A stretch of 64,000 nt of DNA from Candidatus Omnitrophota bacterium (GCA_041652815.1 JBAZGN010000002.1:174261-238260), one strand, 5' to 3'; shown: positions 23,290 through 27,705, numbered from the stretch's first letter. Numbers and translations are program-made. The notes: generated by a model from the letters alone, not told the origin.

Positions 23290-23658
23290 ATGGACAAAAA
23301 GAAATTAGCAATTATCCATATCGTTAAAAAAGAATTAGGCCTGGCTGATAGTGAATACAGAAAAATTTTGCAGGATGTTGCCAGTGTAAACAGCTCAAAA
23401 GACCTGGACGAAGCTGGTTTCAAAAAACTGATGAACTACTTCGTCCGCAGTAAATATTACCAGGTTAACCCTCATGGCCTTACCATAAAACAAAAAATAT
23501 TTATTAAATATCTTGCCAATAAACTCGGCTGGGAAGAGGAGCATCTTAACAACTTTTTGCACAAGTATTATCATAAAACCAAGGTTGATGAATTAACAAA
23601 AGAAGAGGCCATAAAGGCCATTGAATCTTTAAAAGGTGTAAAACAGCATCAAAAATGA
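23290..23658 (+). CDS. Phage Mu GemA/gp16-like protein (DUF1018), orphan
   Basis: IIHIVKKELGLADSEYRKIL... and the C-terminal EEAIKAIESLKG match the DUF1018 consensus (kIHvaKkqLGlddd.YR.lL ... qAskvIeaLK). Confidence 0.55.
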   Translation: MDKKKLAIIHIVKKELGLADSEYRKILQDVASVNSSKDLDEAGFKKLMNYFVRSKYYQVNPHGLTIKQKIFIKYLANKLGWEEEHLNNFLHKYYHKTKVDELTKEEAIKAIESLKGVKQHQK

Positions 23659-23906: not shown

Positions 23907-24227
23907 TTAGTATCTTTTTTCTCTGTAACCTGAGTTTCTTCCGCCGCCGCCGAAGTTATTGCTTCGTGGCTCCATTTTGCGGGCTTTGTTTACTGTCATC
24001 TTTCTTCCGTTTAGTTCCTGCTCGTTCAAAGCATCTATTGCCTGTTGAGCTTGTTCTTCGGTTTCAAACTCCGCAAAGCCAAAACCTTTAGACCTGCCGG
24101 AGAATTTGTCAGTAATAATTCTTACTTCTTTTACGCTTATCCCTTTGCTTTCGATAAGCCCTTTTAGATCACTCTCAGTGACGCCAAATTCCAAGTTGCC
24201 TATGTACAATTTCTTCTGCTCTTCCAT
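23907..24227 (-). CDS. RRM-type glycine-rich RNA-binding protein (106 aa)
   Basis: RNP2 LYIGNL and RNP1 KGFGFAEF with a Gly-rich tail. Real start is the internal MEEQ with an AAGGAG RBS. The 216-aa ORF extension upstream is rejected. Confidence 0.8.
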   Translation of the reverse strand: MEEQKKLYIGNLEFGVTESDLKGLIESKGISVKEVRIITDKFSGRSKGFGFAEFETEEQAQQAIDALNEQELNGRKMTVNKARKMEPRSNNFGGGGRNSGYREKRY

Positions 24228-24495
24228 TTTCGTTTCTCCTTTTACTTTTGAAATCCCGGTTAACGTCCTAAAAACCTCTCTATTTTGGCAGGTTTCATAT
24301 AAAATGCCGTCTACTACACCCGCCATTTCTCTTTTTTTCAATGAACAATTGCATTTACGTGAACCATTACTATACCATAAATCCGGATTTTGACAAGTAA
24401 AAAGATTGAAATTATAGCCAGTGATCCTTTGAAGCAGAGGTTTAGGCACGGTTAATATACATAACCATAGCTCTTTCTTGAGGTTATGACTGTGA

Positions 24496-25322: not shown

Positions 25323-26123
25323 TTGCATTTTTTATTTACGGCAGTAAAATACCTCTTACGATTAAAGCTTATGTTTAAATTAAAATCCATAAAAACGCAA
25401 TTAATCCTGTATCTACTTTGTTTCGCTGTCTTTCTCTCAATTAAAGATAGGGATATAGCTTTCTTGGCCACTACGCTTATTGCCGTTATTGCAAGCTCCG
25501 CCCTGGAAACAATTATTCTGTTTTTTAAAACAAAAACTTTTAAAATAACCGAAAGTTCAGTTATTACAGGCTTAATCGTAGGCTACGCGCTTTCTGCTGA
25601 TAATGTATGGTGGAATTTTGTATTGGCATCTGCGCTAGGCATACTTTCCAAGTCTTTAATTCGTTTTCGCAAAAAACACATTTTTAATCCGGCAGGTTTC
25701 GGTATCTTCTTGGCTCTTATTTTATTCGGCGCATCCACCCAGTGGAAAGGTACTTATCTCTGGTATATAGTTGTGCCTTTTGGGTTTTATTTTGCCGCTA
25801 AGATTAGAAAGATAGAAATAATTACAGGCTACGCAATGGTTTCATTTGTATTGTTTGGGGCTCAGGCGATTTTGCAAAATGTTCCTTTTTGGAATATTTT
25901 CGGTTATTTCAGTTATTTCTATATTTTTATAATGGTAATTGAGCCGCTTACCACACCCACAAGGCCAATAGGTAAATTTTTATTTGGCGCGCTTTTAGCT
26001 TTACTTATTTTTATTTTAACCGAAATCGGAGTGAAATTCGATGCCGAACTTTTTAGCTTGCTGGCTTTAAACATGGCAGTTCCTGTATTAAATAAAATTT
26101 CACATAAAGGAGGAAGAACATGA
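25323..26123 (+). CDS. Stand-alone RnfD/NqrB-like integral membrane protein (truncated relative to canonical RnfD)
   Basis: ITGLIVGYALSADNVWWNFVLASALGILSKSL...HIFNPAGFG aligns to the conserved RnfD/NqrB core (LTGLLLALSLPP..PWW...GKQLYGG..NPFNPAM). Start uncertain: 25323 or 25371. Confidence 0.5.
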   Translation: MHFLFTAVKYLLRLKLMFKLKSIKTQLILYLLCFAVFLSIKDRDIAFLATTLIAVIASSALETIILFFKTKTFKITESSVITGLIVGYALSADNVWWNFVLASALGILSKSLIRFRKKHIFNPAGFGIFLALILFGASTQWKGTYLWYIVVPFGFYFAAKIRKIEIITGYAMVSFVLFGAQAILQNVPFWNIFGYFSYFYIFIMVIEPLTTPTRPIGKFLFGALLALLIFILTEIGVKFDAELFSLLALNMAVPVLNKISHKGGRT

Positions 26124-26473
26124 AAAAGAAAGCTGTATTTATGATTGTTGTTATGTCTTTTGTATCCGGCATAGCTTATGCGCATCCGCCTTCAGATATC
26201 AAAATAAATTTTGACCCTGATACAAAAATGTTGAATGCCGTTATCTCTCATAATACGAGCAATCCTGTAAACCATTATATAAAAAAAGTGGATATTGGTT
26301 TAAACGGAAAAGAAATAATTGGCCATCTCATCAGCCGCGAGGACAATAATGAAACTCAGACTGTTAGTTATCTTATCCCCGATGCAAAAGCCGGCGATAT
26401 TTTGTCTGTTGAGGGTTATTGCAGTATCAGCGGAAAATTAAAAAAGGAAATCACGGTTAGGCCGGTAAAGTGA
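26120..26473 (+). CDS. Secreted desulfoferrodoxin/neelaredoxin-fold protein (SOR-like Fe site, one His ligand replaced)
   Basis: Signal peptide. HPPSDI, ISHNTSNPVNHYIKKVDI and YCSISG align with SOR blocks EKHVPVIE, HPNTTEHHIRYIEL and YCNIHG. The last His is Ser here. Confidence 0.45.
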   Translation: MKKKAVFMIVVMSFVSGIAYAHPPSDIKINFDPDTKMLNAVISHNTSNPVNHYIKKVDIGLNGKEIIGHLISREDNNETQTVSYLIPDAKAGDILSVEGYCSISGKLKKEITVRPVK

Positions 26474-26516
26474 TTTAAGGACAATAAAAACTGATTCATT
26501 TATTGGAGGAAAAAAG

Positions 26517-27461
26517 ATGATAAAAATAACAACAAGGAAGATTTTGTTTTTAACCGTATCCGTGTGCATTATTTTAATTTTAGGATTTTGTGCGGCGATT
26601 ATCATAAGAAAACATTCCACTCGTAAAACAATCGGCCGGCTTAATGCGGGTTATAAAGTGCTAAATACCATAAATACCTATTTTGTTCCTGGGAAAAATG
26701 TAACACTTTCCGGCAAGCCGGTTGAGGAACGTGGCCTTTATAAAGTAGACCTTGTTCTGGATAATGTTACACAGTCTTTCTATCTTACAAAAGACGGGGC
26801 CTTACTGATTTTTCCAAATGCCGTAATAGATATTGCGAAGCTTAAGAATATGCCTAAGCAGGTACCAGAAGTGGAAAGAGAAGAAATACCTAAGGCGGAT
26901 AAGCCGGTAATTGAACTATTTGTGATGAGCCTGTGCCCCTACGGAAGCCGCGCAGAAAAAGTTATTCTGCCGGTTATTAAACCTTTCGGTGACAAAATAG
27001 ATTTCAAAATAAAATTTATAGTCAATGTTAACGGTAACAGTATAAATGATGTTGCTTCGTTGCACGGCCTTGACGAGGTAAAAGAAGATGCCAGGCAGGC
27101 TGCTATAATGAAATTTTATCCCGATAAATTTGCTGCGTACATAGATAAAATAAATGAAAAGTCCTGCGTTATTTCATGCGGAGCAGTAAAGCTTGAGGAT
27201 TATTGGAAAGAGGCAGCGGGTAAATTGCAAATGGATGCAAAAAAGATTGAGAAATTTGCTTATGGCCAGGAAGGTTTGAGTTTATTGAAAGAAAATGAAG
27301 TAGATAGCCAAAAATATAATGCATCCGCAAGCCCCACTTTGATTATAAATGGCGTAAAAAGCGATGCAATTTATAAGGATGCAACAACTATCGAAGGAGC
27401 AATTTGTTCCGCATTTACTGAGGCTCCGAGTGTGTGCCTAGACAAAGAAAGCGGCTCATAG
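26517..27461 (+). CDS. Membrane-anchored DsbA-like thioredoxin-fold protein with CPYG in place of CxxC
   Basis: N-terminal TM. LCPYGSRAEKV at the DsbA active-site position. C-terminal SPTLIINGV is typical of DsbA. Confidence 0.5.
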   Translation: MIKITTRKILFLTVSVCIILILGFCAAIIIRKHSTRKTIGRLNAGYKVLNTINTYFVPGKNVTLSGKPVEERGLYKVDLVLDNVTQSFYLTKDGALLIFPNAVIDIAKLKNMPKQVPEVEREEIPKADKPVIELFVMSLCPYGSRAEKVILPVIKPFGDKIDFKIKFIVNVNGNSINDVASLHGLDEVKEDARQAAIMKFYPDKFAAYIDKINEKSCVISCGAVKLEDYWKEAAGKLQMDAKKIEKFAYGQEGLSLLKENEVDSQKYNASASPTLIINGVKSDAIYKDATTIEGAICSAFTEAPSVCLDKESGS

Positions 27462-27705
27462 AAAGTCTCATTTGCCTACCTCGCCTTATTGAAAAAGTAG
27501 TTGCTTTATTCCATTTTTTTATTATAATATGCTTTCGTAAAAAGTTTACCTGCCTGCCGACAGCCCAACAGGCTAAAAGCCTGGTAGACAGGCGGGGATT
27601 TTTAGGCTGCTAACTGGAGCCCCTCTTGGGGCGACGTCCCGAACCGCCGTTCACCACGGGCGTAGCCTGTGGTTATTTAGCAACAGGATAGCAACCCCCG
27701 GTAGA

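What the first reader, a model, noticed from the sequence alone, without database searches (positions are those of the whole stretch)
25323..27461. Stand-alone RnfD/NqrB-like membrane protein followed by a secreted SOR-like protein with an altered Fe site and a DsbA-like protein lacking the second active-site Cys
Three tightly linked + strand genes, with 25323..26123 overlapping 26120..26473.

(1) A 266-aa membrane protein whose core aligns to the conserved RnfD/NqrB segment (…TGL..ALS…WW…GK.L…FNPA…). It lacks the rest of an Rnf/Nqr complex and is about 80 aa shorter than RnfD. A GAS(T) tripeptide sits 16 residues after FNPA.

(2) A signal-peptide protein with a desulfoferrodoxin / superoxide-reductase centre. 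Three His and one Cys are conserved. The fourth His (YCNIHG in SOR) is Ser (YCSISG).

(3) A membrane-anchored DsbA-fold protein with CPYG at the CxxC position.

Together this looks like a compact extracytoplasmic redox module: a membrane flavo-subunit feeding a periplasmic non-haem-iron protein. I do not recognise it as a described operon. It is reminiscent of the ApbE-flavinylated extracytosolic electron-transfer modules reported across bacteria.
Basis: partly seen in the sequence, partly recalled or inferred. Interest (0 to 1): 0.6.

Follow-up and report, generated by a model that had tools for sequence, protein, structure and literature searches.

The report
Mini-RnfD paired with secreted SOR-like protein
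An uncultured Omnitrophota bacterium carries a tightly coupled gene pair, a stripped-down RnfD/NqrB-type membrane protein and a small secreted relative of superoxide reductase with an altered metal site, that is conserved across about 60 species and often sits among oxygen-stress genes, so it may be an undescribed cell-envelope redox or metal-handling device; the third gene (a one-cysteine thioredoxin-fold protein) is only a local neighbour.

Summary
The three genes are real, in a Candidatus Omnitrophota MAG.

- **g1** (true start 25371, 250 aa) has an RnfD/NqrB fold (Pfam 63.8 bits; Foldseek TM 0.76). It lacks the roughly 75-residue linker carrying the flavinylated Thr. No rnf, nqr or apbE genes lie nearby.
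- **g2** gives no PF01880 hit itself. It belongs to a large unnamed family (1,577 clusters at 50% identity) that is a divergent desulfoferrodoxin/SOR branch: one member passes the Pfam cutoff, 82 of 123 give weak hits, and Foldseek finds SORs. The signature is a signal peptide cut immediately before an N-terminal His, plus H-x7-H and C-[NS]-x-x-G. SOR's fourth His is variable.
- **g1 and g2** are adjacent in 63 of 71 loci, usually overlapping by ATGA, and fused in three proteins. About half the loci carry SOR, Tpx, Hcp or FDP genes nearby; about a quarter carry CopA or YHS genes.
- **g3** is a GILT/VSR-TRX/DsbA-like protein with invariant CP[YF]G. It accompanies the pair in only four close relatives.

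Best reading (about 0.4): a two-subunit envelope redox module. Main rival: metal trafficking. The flavinylation idea is not supported. I found no description in the literature searched.

The parts
25371..26123 (+). g1: minimal RnfD/NqrB-like polytopic membrane protein (250 aa). The upstream TTG at 25323 is probably not the start.
   Evidence: PF03116 at 63.8 bits. The identical 250-aa protein P0121 is deposited. AF2 pLDDT is 80.5. The top 15 Foldseek hits are RnfD/NqrB, TMq 0.62-0.76. Charge distribution fits N-in/C-in topology.
25683..25694 (+). g1 FNPA motif (residues 105-108). N106 is equivalent to RnfD Asn124.
   Evidence: Invariant in 58 homologues. It aligns with the NPA of RnfD chains. 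The role of Asn124 is from PMC9588780.
25728..25757 (+). g1 ten-residue periplasmic loop GASTQWKGTY. It replaces the roughly 50-residue 'five-helix linker' of RnfD that carries the flavinylated Thr.
   Evidence: The RsxD loop ...GISQATPLD... falls in a gap of the g1 family. Two-block alignment: g1 122-185 against RnfD 138-278. W125, T128 and Y129 are invariant; positions 121-123 vary. Coordinates were checked.
25941..25958 (+). g1 EPxTTP motif (residues 191-196). E191 is equivalent to RnfD Asp248.
   Evidence: P192 and T194 are invariant; E191 is at least 90% conserved. It aligns with the 'tDP/tDy..sP' motif of RnfD. Asp248 is implicated in Na+ and riboflavin binding (PMC9588780).
26107..26123 (+). 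Translational-coupling junction: AAGGAGG Shine-Dalgarno inside the g1 3' end, then an ATGA start/stop overlap.
   Evidence: The same -4 overlap occurs in 29 of 59 loci, and nearly all gaps are within 12 nt.
26120..26473 (+). g2: secreted 117-aa SOR-like beta-sandwich protein. Signal peptide 26120-26182; mature protein starts at His22 (26183). Conserved H22, H44 (26249), H52 (26273), C101 (26420), G105 (26432). The variable position 104 (26429) corresponds to SOR's fourth His.
   Evidence: Family alignments. AF2 pLDDT 87 with seven strands. Foldseek hits to SORs. hhalign and MAFFT merge place H52, C101, S104 and G105 on the SOR His, Cys, His and Gly columns. PF01880 hits in relatives.
26517..27461 (+). 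g3: membrane-anchored thioredoxin-fold protein (GILT/VSR_TRX/DsbA-like) with monothiol CPYG (26934-26945), an SPT cis-Pro-type loop and the C297/C307 pair. It is a local neighbour, not part of the conserved pair.
   Evidence: Sub-threshold Pfam hits for the window protein. Homologues pass the DSBA, GILT and VSR_TRX cutoffs. The profile hits the plant VSR TRX domain at E 2.5e-9. CP[YF]G occurs in 116 of 116 homologues. g3 is present next to g1-g2 only in L001, L002, L003 and L012.
27579..27603 (+). Terminator-like hairpin downstream of g3. None was found between g1, g2 and g3.
   Evidence: This is a consensus scan only: 2 sites found against 2.6 expected.

Best explanation
g1 and g2 encode a two-subunit cell-envelope redox module. 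g3 is unrelated to it.

Shown:
- g2 is exported with a Sec-type signal peptide. The predicted cut leaves His22 as the first residue of a seven-stranded beta-sandwich homologous to the catalytic domain of superoxide reductase.
- g1 is a minimal RnfD/NqrB-fold membrane protein. It keeps the central Asn (FNPA) and acidic (EPxTTP) residues that in Rnf lie at the riboflavin/Na+ site. It has lost the periplasmic linker with the covalent FMN.
- The two genes are translationally coupled, co-inherited and occasionally fused.

Inferred:
- The conserved residues H22, H44, H52 and C101 all lie at one pole of the sandwich and bind one redox-active metal ion. The metal would be Fe by homology to SOR; Cu is possible.
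- The free alpha-amine of His22 may supply the nitrogen ligand that SOR gets from its fourth His.
- Mature g2 docks on the periplasmic face of g1, over the cavity that the FMN linker covers in RnfD.
- g1 passes single electrons from a cytoplasmic or membrane donor, through a non-covalent flavin, to the g2 metal.
- The g2 metal reduces superoxide or another reactive oxygen or nitrogen species outside the cytoplasm.
For: Homology of g2 to SOR:
- P0254 matches the g2 profile at 135 bits and passes the PF01880 cutoff (24.2 against 22.2 bits).
- PF01880 is the commonest Pfam hit in the family: 82 of 123 members, best E 1.5e-5.
- Foldseek places N. equitans, Ignicoccus and Giardia SORs among the top hits.
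- hhalign (E 1.3e-3) and a MAFFT merge align H52, C101 and G105 with the SOR ligand His, the Cys and the Gly of CNIHG.
- Rare members still read CN[IV]HG.

Metal site:
- H44, H52, C101 and G105 are invariant and H22 is at least 90% conserved in 123 diverse members.
- The AxA|H junction is kept even in the three g1-g2 fusion proteins.

g1:
- PF03116 hit, RnfD/NqrB fold, N106 and E191 conserved, FMN linker deleted.

Coupling:
- The pair is adjacent in 63 of 71 loci.
- It overlaps by ATGA in 29 of 59 loci.
- It is fused in P0172, P0195 and P0252.

Context:
- Of 43 species-level loci with at least 8 kb, 21 carry SOR, Tpx, Hcp, flavodiiron or rubredoxin genes within 6 kb, on the same strand and with several different architectures.

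Precedent:
- Two-subunit Nqr/Rnf-like complexes have an RnfD-like subunit that also lacks the FMN-Thr and is modelled to contact its extracytosolic partner at a non-covalent flavin site (PMC8238504, PMC11334425).
Against: - No activity, metal or cofactor is known for any family member.
- The window's own g2 has no significant PF01880 hit. The hhalign probability is only 19%.
- SOR's fourth His and its Glu-Lys pair before the first His are missing.
- g1 has no cytoplasmic donor domain, no conserved Cys and only one conserved His. Any electron input and any flavin are therefore assumptions.
- The correspondence of H22 and H44 to SOR ligands rests on motif and spacing, not on an automatic alignment.
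- I had no access to model coordinates or to a complex prediction.
- A Sec-exported apo-protein would tend to pick up Cu or Zn rather than Fe (general knowledge, not tested here).
- In the window itself no stress genes are nearby.
- About 10% of g2 genes lack an adjacent g1. Distant family members pair with unrelated partners such as DUF5777 and CxxCxxCC proteins.
Confidence: 0.4

Rival explanations
1. Metal trafficking. g2 is a periplasmic metal-binding protein (Cu, possibly Fe or Zn) that uses an N-terminal histidine brace plus His/Cys, as CopC or YcnI do. It hands the ion to, or receives it from, g1, which would act as a channel or permease. The arrangement would be analogous to CopC-CopD, which also occurs as fusions.
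For: - The mature N-terminus is His-Pro-Pro, immediately after a conserved AxA cleavage site.
- Export is by Sec rather than Tat.
- A CopA-type P1B ATPase or YHS-domain genes lie within 6 kb in 12 of 43 loci and are sometimes directly upstream of g1. FeoB is nearby in 5 loci.
- The RnfD/NqrB fold is related to urea and ammonium channels (Foldseek hit 3k3f at TMq 0.53; PMC9588780).
- Natural g1-g2 fusions exist.
Against: - g2's detectable homology is to SOR, not to CopC (a single PF04234 hit at E 0.19).
- There are no Met-rich Cu(I) motifs.
- An invariant Cys next to His ligands is typical of redox centres.
- The association with ROS/RNS genes (21 of 43 loci) is stronger than with Cu genes (12 of 43).
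- No RnfD/NqrB homologue is known to be a metal transporter.
Confidence: 0.25
2. A three-gene extracytoplasmic module in which g1 is an ApbE-flavinylated membrane flavoprotein feeding a periplasmic non-haem-iron protein, with the DsbA-like g3 as a third component.
For: - The three genes are contiguous here with no terminator-like site between them.
- g3 follows g2 in the four closest relatives.
- A GAST sequence sits in the periplasmic loop of g1.
Against: - g3 is absent next to the pair in 67 of 71 loci.
- The flavinylation linker of RnfD is deleted.
- GAS is not conserved and lacks the [S/T]GA[S/T] context.
- No Ftp/ApbE homologue was detected in the window or in 74 loci (sensitivity is limited).
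Confidence: 0.05
3. The pair has another, non-redox and non-metal role. For example, g2 could be a secreted Ig-like binding or sensor domain whose conserved His/Cys bind structural Zn, and g1 an ion channel or anchor. The stress-island location would then reflect shared regulation only.
For: - The generic Ig-like fold gives many non-SOR Foldseek hits.
- 47 of 123 members give weak SoxZ hits.
- Distant family members have varied partners.
- The g2 gene is an orphan in about 10% of loci.
Against: - The conservation pattern is limited to SOR ligand positions.
- Coupling to an RnfD-like protein is tight.
- Placement inside ROS/RNS operon-like arrays is recurrent across several architectures.
Confidence: 0.2

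Closest known systems
Superoxide reductase (neelaredoxin / 1Fe-SOR; Pfam PF01880), including the predicted TAT-SOR class of SORGOdb (PMC3116461)
   Same: - Seven-stranded Ig-like sandwich of the same size.
- The H...H-x(n)-H-[YH]-I and C-N-x-x-G motifs sit at the same loops.
- Genuine SOR genes lie a few kb away in 13 of 43 loci.
- TAT-SORs show that extracytoplasmic SORs have been predicted before.
   Different: - The fourth His ligand is not conserved.
- The Glu-Lys pair before the first His is removed, because the mature protein starts at that His.
- The signal is Sec-type, not Tat-type.
- The window protein scores below the PF01880 threshold.
- The gene is coupled to a membrane protein instead of rubredoxin-type donors.
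RnfD / NqrB subunits of Rnf and Na+-NQR (PF03116; PDB 9eri_D, 8ahx_D, 7zc6_D, 8ad0_B)
   Same: - The fold of two inverted helix bundles.
- The FNPA and (D/E)PxT motifs, with the Asn and acid that contact riboflavin/Na+ in Rnf.
- N-in/C-in topology.
   Different: - 250 aa against 305-415 aa.
- The five-helix linker with the covalent FMN-Thr is reduced to 10 residues.
- The N-terminal arm that binds RnfC is shortened.
- No other rnf or nqr genes are nearby.
- It scores far below the equivalog cutoffs (39 against 207 bits).
Two-subunit 'Nqr/Rnf-like' extracytosolic electron-transfer complexes (Meheust 2021, PMC8238504; Huang 2024, PMC11334425)
   Same: - An RnfD/NqrB-like membrane subunit without the flavinylated Thr.
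- It is paired with one membrane-anchored or secreted extracytosolic redox subunit.
- The function is proposed to be one-way electron export.
   Different: - Those systems fuse a cytosolic NAD-binding domain (PF00175) to the membrane subunit.
- Their partner is an ApbE-flavinylated FMN-binding (NqrC/RnfG-like) protein.
- Here there is no NAD domain, no FMN-binding domain and no apbE. The partner is a SOR-like metal protein.
CopC-CopD and YcnI-type periplasmic copper proteins (recalled from memory, not tested beyond one Pfam scan)
   Same: - A small secreted beta-sandwich whose mature N-terminal His could form a histidine brace.
- It is paired with, and sometimes fused to, a polytopic membrane protein.
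   Different: - There is no sequence similarity (PF04234 E 0.19 in one member).
- A conserved Cys is present.
- The partner has an RnfD fold, not CopD.
GILT / plant vacuolar-sorting-receptor TRX-like domain / DsbA (for g3)
   Same: - A thioredoxin fold with a helical insertion.
- Homologues pass the PF03227, PF25011 and PF01323 cutoffs.
- The profile hits VSR1 (8r4y_A) at E 2.5e-9.
- A cis-Pro-type SPT loop is present.
   Different: - The active site is CP[YF]G (single Cys) in all 116 homologues, instead of CxxC.
- It is bacterial, with an N-terminal membrane anchor and an extra roughly 90-residue domain of unidentified type before the TRX fold.

Membership tests
RnfD/NqrB (PF03116 NQR2_RnfD_RnfE) | Significant match to the family HMM and the RnfD/NqrB fold | tested here: met
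   63.8 bits against a cutoff of 27.7. PDB profile E 4e-10. Foldseek TMq 0.62-0.76 to 15 RnfD/NqrB chains.
RnfD/NqrB (PF03116 NQR2_RnfD_RnfE) | Covalent FMN on a Thr in an [S/T]GA[S/T] motif of the periplasmic linker | tested here: not met
   The RsxD '...SQATPLD' loop falls in a gap. g1 has 64 residues where RnfD has 141. GAS(T) is not conserved.
RnfD/NqrB (PF03116 NQR2_RnfD_RnfE) | Encoded with the other Rnf (A, B, C, E, G) or Nqr subunits | tested here: not met
   tblastn with E. coli RsxA-E and RsxG found nothing in the window. In 76 loci it found one weak RsxC hit.
RnfD/NqrB (PF03116 NQR2_RnfD_RnfE) | Passes the equivalog/subfamily models TIGR01946 and NF002011 | tested here: not met
   39.4 against 207 bits, and 43.1 against 415 bits.
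Superoxide reductase / desulfoferrodoxin domain (PF01880) | Match to PF01880 at or above the gathering score | tested here: inconclusive
   The window g2 has no hit. Family member P0254 scores 24.2 against 22.2 bits; others score 17-21.5 bits with PF01880 as top hit in nearly all. 82 of 123 members hit at E<=1.
Superoxide reductase / desulfoferrodoxin domain (PF01880) | Seven-stranded Ig-like beta-sandwich | tested here: met
   AF2 pLDDT 87 with seven strands. SOR chains are among the top Foldseek hits, TMq 0.44-0.58.
Superoxide reductase / desulfoferrodoxin domain (PF01880) | [Fe(His)4(Cys)] ligand set | tested here: not met
   Three His and the Cys are conserved. The column of the fourth His (CNIHG) is S, F, G, Y, R, A or N, and His in only 3 of 142.
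Superoxide reductase / desulfoferrodoxin domain (PF01880) | Glu-Lys pair immediately before the first His ligand | tested here: not met
   The predicted signal-peptidase site AYA|H makes His22 the first mature residue. Cleavage itself is predicted, not shown.
Superoxide reductase / desulfoferrodoxin domain (PF01880) | Superoxide reductase activity and bound iron | not testable with these tools
   Needs protein biochemistry.
Nqr/Rnf-like two-subunit flavinylated systems (Meheust 2021 / Huang 2024) | RnfD/NqrB-like membrane domain lacking the FMN-Thr | tested here: met
   The definition is from PMC11334425.
Nqr/Rnf-like two-subunit flavinylated systems (Meheust 2021 / Huang 2024) | C-terminal cytosolic NAD-binding domain (PF00175) fused to the membrane domain | tested here: not met
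   g1 is 250 aa, and PF03116 is its only significant Pfam match.
Nqr/Rnf-like two-subunit flavinylated systems (Meheust 2021 / Huang 2024) | Extracytosolic partner with an FMN-binding domain and flavinylation motif, and apbE in the cluster | tested here: not met
   The partner is SOR-like. There is no Ftp/ApbE hit by tblastn in the window or the loci (limited sensitivity).
DsbA / GILT / VSR_TRX thioredoxin-fold proteins (g3) | Match to the family HMMs | tested here: inconclusive
   The window g3 is sub-threshold (GILT 17.2 against 22.4; DSBA 11.7 against 25.6). Homologues at 34-60% identity pass VSR_TRX (49.5 against 27), GILT and DSBA. The family profile hits the VSR1 TRX domain at E 2.5e-9.
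DsbA / GILT / VSR_TRX thioredoxin-fold proteins (g3) | CxxC redox-active dithiol | tested here: not met
   CP[YF]G in 116 of 116 aligned homologues.
CopC-type histidine-brace copper proteins | Mature N-terminal His, match to PF04234, and a CopD partner | tested here: not met
   An N-terminal His is predicted. PF04234 appears only once, at E 0.19. The partner is RnfD-like.

The most novel reading that the evidence does not exclude
g2 is the founding example of a large, unnamed family of secreted SOR-derived metalloproteins. In this family the alpha-amine of the mature N-terminal His (a histidine brace) replaces SOR's fourth His ligand. In Omnitrophota it forms, with a single flavin-only mini-RnfD subunit, a self-contained transmembrane electron conduit. 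That conduit detoxifies superoxide or related species in the periplasm of anaerobes. This would be a periplasmic counterpart of cytoplasmic SOR and the smallest known RnfD-based electron-transfer device.
Probability: 0.15. Interest if true: 0.8.

Novelty: new variant of a known kind. Interest (0 to 1): 0.6.

Why it matters
- **A possible missing function.** Strict anaerobes remove cytoplasmic superoxide with SOR. How they protect the periplasm is poorly understood, and only a handful of Tat-exported SORs have been predicted. A conserved secreted SOR relative, wired to a membrane protein and embedded in oxygen-stress islands, is a concrete and testable candidate.
- **A large unnamed family.** The g2 family comprises at least 1,577 clusters at 50% identity and has no Pfam or NCBIfam model. 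Its invariant N-terminal-His/His/His/Cys signature is easy to test.
- **New information on the RnfD/NqrB fold.** The fold can exist as a 250-residue stand-alone protein without covalent FMN. This bears on how Rnf and Nqr evolved from channel-like ancestors.
- **A practical annotation issue.** NCBI names g1 'RnfABCDGE type electron transport complex subunit D'. This may inflate inferences of Rnf complexes in metabolic reconstructions of Omnitrophota.

Tried and rejected
- **Direct searches for g2 found no SOR.** These were the single sequence and the narrow profile A1 against PDB sequences. The broad profile A4 gave only marginal SOR rows (2ji2_A E 0.4; 1do6_A E 0.73).
- **Weak profile comparisons.** hhalign of A1 against 12 Omnitrophota SORs gave 4.6% probability. 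A local HMM built from those SORs scored at most 14 bits on the family. Homology became convincing only through the broader Pfam model run on diverse members.
- Partners of distant family members were sampled by only five contig look-ups.
- **Wasted literature search.** One search was lost because the term 'UnbU' matched 'unburned'.
- **Flavinylation hypothesis rejected.**
- **Other negatives.** Rfam and tRNA scans of the window found nothing. The promoter/terminator scan was not above shuffled expectation.
- **Not available.** The spatial clustering of H22, H44, H52 and C101 is therefore argued only from strand order.
Full report
**Origin and gene calls**

The window comes from a Candidatus Omnitrophica/Omnitrophota metagenome-assembled genome. 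Proteins identical to g2 (P0001, locus tag M0R48_11680) and g1 (P0121) are deposited from a 448-kb contig.

g1 should start at ATG 25371 (250 aa) rather than TTG 25323. The deposited protein and all homologues begin at MFKLKSIKTQ.

g1's stop and g2's start overlap as ATGA (26120-26123). An AAGGAGG sits 6 nt upstream of the start codon. g3 follows after 43 nt. The only terminator-like hairpin lies after g3.

**g1 is an RnfD/NqrB-fold protein without the flavin linker**

- It hits PF03116 at 63.8 bits against a cutoff of 27.7.
- It scores far below the Rnf/Rsx subunit-D equivalog models: 39 against 207 bits, and 43 against 415 bits.
- A 58-sequence family profile hits A. vinelandii, A. woodii and C. 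tetanomorphum RnfD at E 4e-10 to 1e-6. The match comes in two blocks: g1 32-121 with RnfD 48-137, and g1 186-243 with RnfD 279-336. g1 therefore has 64 residues where RnfD has 141.
- The AlphaFold model (pLDDT 80.5) finds only RnfD and NqrB chains as its 15 best PDB matches (TMq 0.62-0.76). A urea transporter follows at 0.53.

According to Vitt et al. 2022 (PMC9588780):
- RnfD consists of two inverted five-helix halves joined by a 'five-helix linker'.
- That linker carries the FMN-threonine and caps the FMN.
- A riboflavin sits in the cytoplasmic leaflet.
- Asn124 (of NPA) and Asp248 are the conserved residues at the Na+/riboflavin site.

In g1 the equivalents N106 and E191 are conserved. The linker is reduced to the ten-residue loop GASTQWKGTY (25728-25757).

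In a MAFFT alignment with E. coli RsxD, the flavinylation loop ...GISQATPLD... falls into a gap. Homologues read GLS, GVS, GAY, GAT or GVP at those positions. It also lacks the [S/T]GA[S/T] context. Charge distribution fits N-in/C-in topology, with this loop outside.

tblastn with E. coli RsxA-E/G and Ftp (ApbE) finds nothing in the window or near the pair in 74 related loci. g1 is therefore a genuine stand-alone, minimal RnfD-like protein. Covalent flavinylation is very unlikely.

**g2 is a divergent secreted member of the SOR domain superfamily**

The window protein alone gives no Pfam, NCBIfam or PDB sequence hit. It has 823 close homologues of 115-120 aa, all 'hypothetical' and nearly all from Omnitrophota. 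A profile search of 1.84 billion cluster representatives finds 1,577 clusters at E<=1e-3 and 772 at E<=1e-10. This is a large unnamed family.

Across 123-142 diverse members the signature is:
- a signal peptide ending in a small residue immediately before His22 (130 of 142), followed by Pro at position 24;
- H44-x7-H52-[YF]-[IV], with both His invariant;
- C101-[NS]-x-x-G105, with the Cys in 139 of 142 of the larger set and invariant in the 123-member alignment;
- a variable position 104 (S, F, G, Y, R, A or N), with His in only 3 of 142.

The AlphaFold model (pLDDT 87) is a seven-stranded sandwich. From the strand order, H22, H44, H52, C101/G105 and the conserved 71-78 loop all lie at the same pole.

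Foldseek against the PDB returns SORs interleaved with generic Ig-like domains and SoxYZ. The SOR hits are 6gq8_A (E 6e-4, 21% identity), 4brj, and 4d7p (TMq 0.58).

Sequence evidence for homology emerged at family level:
- PF01880 is by far the commonest Pfam hit (82 of 123 members, best E 1.5e-5). SoxZ is second, with 47.
- P0254 matches the g2 profile at 135 bits and passes the PF01880 gathering score, 24.2 against 22.2 bits. Other members score 17-21.5 bits over nearly the whole domain.
- hhalign of the broad family against 12 bona fide Omnitrophota SORs gives E 1.3e-3 but only 19% probability. It places H52 on the SOR ligand His of 'HHI' and C101xxxG on CNIHG.
- A MAFFT profile merge agrees. 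It puts S104 on the column of SOR's fourth His.
- Rare members still read CN[IV]HG (P0358, P0378, and the L074 homologue).
- IMG labels two members 'desulfoferrodoxin (superoxide reductase-like protein)'.

The correspondence of H22 with SOR's first ligand (EKH-V-P-V-I against H-P-P-S-D-I) rests on motif and spacing only. The same is true for H44 and the second ligand.

Differences from SOR:
- no conserved fourth His;
- no Glu-Lys before the first His, because the mature chain starts there;
- a Sec-type rather than Tat-type signal, unlike the TAT-SORs of SORGOdb (PMC3116461).

**g1 and g2 form the conserved unit**

A scan of one genome per species returned 74 loci. g1 lies immediately upstream of g2 in 63 of 71 loci. 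The overlap is -4 in 29 of 59 cases, and almost all gaps are within 12 nt.

Three mutually divergent proteins (P0172, P0195, P0252; 365-369 aa) are g1-g2 fusions. All keep the hydrophobic segment and the AYA|HPP or VYA|HPP junction. This fits a cytoplasmic g1 C-terminus and an external g2. It also suggests that cleavage before the His matters.

About 10% of g2 genes are orphans. Distant family members sit next to other partners: DUF5777, a CxxCxxCC protein, and a small 4-TM protein.

**Genomic context**

In roughly half of the loci with enough flank, the pair is embedded in same-strand arrays of anaerobe oxidative and nitrosative stress genes. Of 43 loci with at least 8 kb, 21 have such genes within 6 kb. 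Two examples:
- CitMHS, YHS-ArsP, G1, G2, Rrf2, Hcp, SOR, Tpx, FNR-like, FDP, PNPOx (L058);
- Tpx, SOR, OFOR-alpha/beta, PNPOx, TrxR, G1, G2, rSAM, AzoR, FeoB, Rrf2, Fer4, Hcp (L056).

Neighbour identities were confirmed by Pfam and NCBIfam: Hcp 714 bits, Tpx 176, flavodiiron 498, rubredoxin 99, and AmmeMemoRadiSam rSAM 357.

Twelve of the 43 loci carry a P1B ATPase or YHS-domain genes. The ATPase has Cu+-type motifs, judged from my own knowledge of those signatures. It is sometimes directly upstream of g1. Five loci carry FeoB.

The window itself has none of these genes. Here the pair lies between a divergent plsC-like acyltransferase gene and g3/fusA.

**g3 is a separate matter**

The window protein gives only sub-threshold GILT, Thioredoxin_4 and DSBA hits. 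Among its 178 homologues are proteins that pass the VSR_TRX (49.5 against 27 bits), GILT and DSBA cutoffs. The family profile matches the thioredoxin-like domain of plant vacuolar sorting receptor 1 at E 2.5e-9.

CP[YF]G is present in all 116 aligned homologues. They also share an SPT (cis-Pro-type) loop and a C297/C307 pair. The 'missing second Cys' is therefore a family trait, not a local loss.

g3 follows g1-g2 only in the four closest relatives (L001, L002, L003, L012).

**Mechanism**

The best-supported reading (confidence about 0.4) is a two-subunit envelope redox module. Mature g2 binds one redox-active metal through His22, His44, His52 and Cys101. The N-terminal amine may act as the fourth nitrogen donor. 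g2 docks on the periplasmic face of g1 where RnfD's FMN linker used to be. It receives electrons through a non-covalent flavin at the conserved N106/E191 site. It then reduces superoxide or a related species outside the cytoplasm.

- **Shown:** the homologies, the ligand-position conservation, the loss of the FMN linker, the genetic coupling and fusions, and the stress-island context.
- **Inferred:** the metal identity, the docking, the flavin, the electron donor and the substrate.

The nearest described analogue is the two-subunit Nqr/Rnf-like complex (PMC8238504, PMC11334425). Its RnfD-like subunit also lacks the FMN-Thr. It differs in having a fused NAD-binding domain and a flavinylated FMN-binding partner.

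The main rival (about 0.25) is metal trafficking of the CopC-CopD type. It is favoured by the N-terminal His-Pro, the Sec export route, the CopA/YHS neighbours and the channel ancestry of the RnfD fold.

**Novelty**

Full-text searches found no description of this pair or of the g2 family. The searches covered flavinylation systems, RnfD-like proteins, SOR classes and Omnitrophota genomics. Subscription-only literature was not searchable. I classify it as a new variant of known kinds: an SOR-domain protein combined with an RnfD-like electron-transfer subunit.

Noticed in passing
window 26517-27461 (g3) and homologues P0392-P0511: A bacterial family of membrane-anchored thioredoxin-fold proteins with invariant monothiol CP[YF]G. 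Its closest solved relative is the TRX-like domain of plant vacuolar sorting receptor 1 (8r4y_A, E 2.5e-9). Members occur in Omnitrophota, and in MAGs labelled Levyibacteriota and Nanoarchaeota.
   Followed up: partly
P0172, P0195, P0252 (proteins from other contigs): Natural g1-g2 fusion proteins of 365-369 aa that retain the signal-peptidase-type AxA|H junction. P0245 (136 aa) looks like a deletion or assembly chimera: the g1 N-terminus joined to the g2 C-terminus.
   Followed up: partly
window 25371-26123 and homologues: NCBI PGAP names this stand-alone 250-aa protein 'RnfABCDGE type electron transport complex subunit D', although it scores 39 against 207 bits on TIGR01946. IMG names some homologues 'RnfD subunit' and one 'enediyne biosynthesis protein E5'. 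Such labels may inflate Rnf calls in metabolic reconstructions.
   Followed up: partly
L083:3161-4003: Directly downstream of a distant g2 homologue lies a 280-aa paralogue. Its N- and C-terminal parts resemble g2 but lack the H44, H52 and N-terminal His ligands. It appears to be a degenerate duplicated derivative with a long insert.
   Followed up: no
L078:8367-9101; L080:5064-5714; L082:6378-6887: Distant g2-family members are paired with other partners instead of a mini-RnfD: a DUF5777 protein, a CxxCxxCC (PF03692) protein, or a 169-aa four-TM protein. The SOR-like module may plug into several different partners.
   Followed up: partly
Related loci, e.g. L029, L053, L056, L057, L059, L064 (cluster c13): An ~80-aa Cys-rich protein with no Pfam or NCBIfam hit is conserved between the Fer4-domain gene and hcp in 10-12 loci of the stress islands.
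   Followed up: no
Related loci L024, L036, L054, L056 (cluster c25): An AmmeMemoRadiSam-type radical SAM gene (TIGR04337, 357 bits) follows g2 directly. It overlaps g2 by 4 nt in three loci and follows it after a 4-nt gap in a fourth. No AMMECR1 or Memo genes were noted nearby.
   Followed up: no
window 23290-23658 and 23907-24242 (- strand): Upstream of the plsC-like gene lie a 122-aa ORF and, by eye, a small glycine-rich RRM-type RNA-binding protein. The 122-aa ORF recurs near the pair in L009. Neither was scanned against the profile libraries.
   Followed up: no
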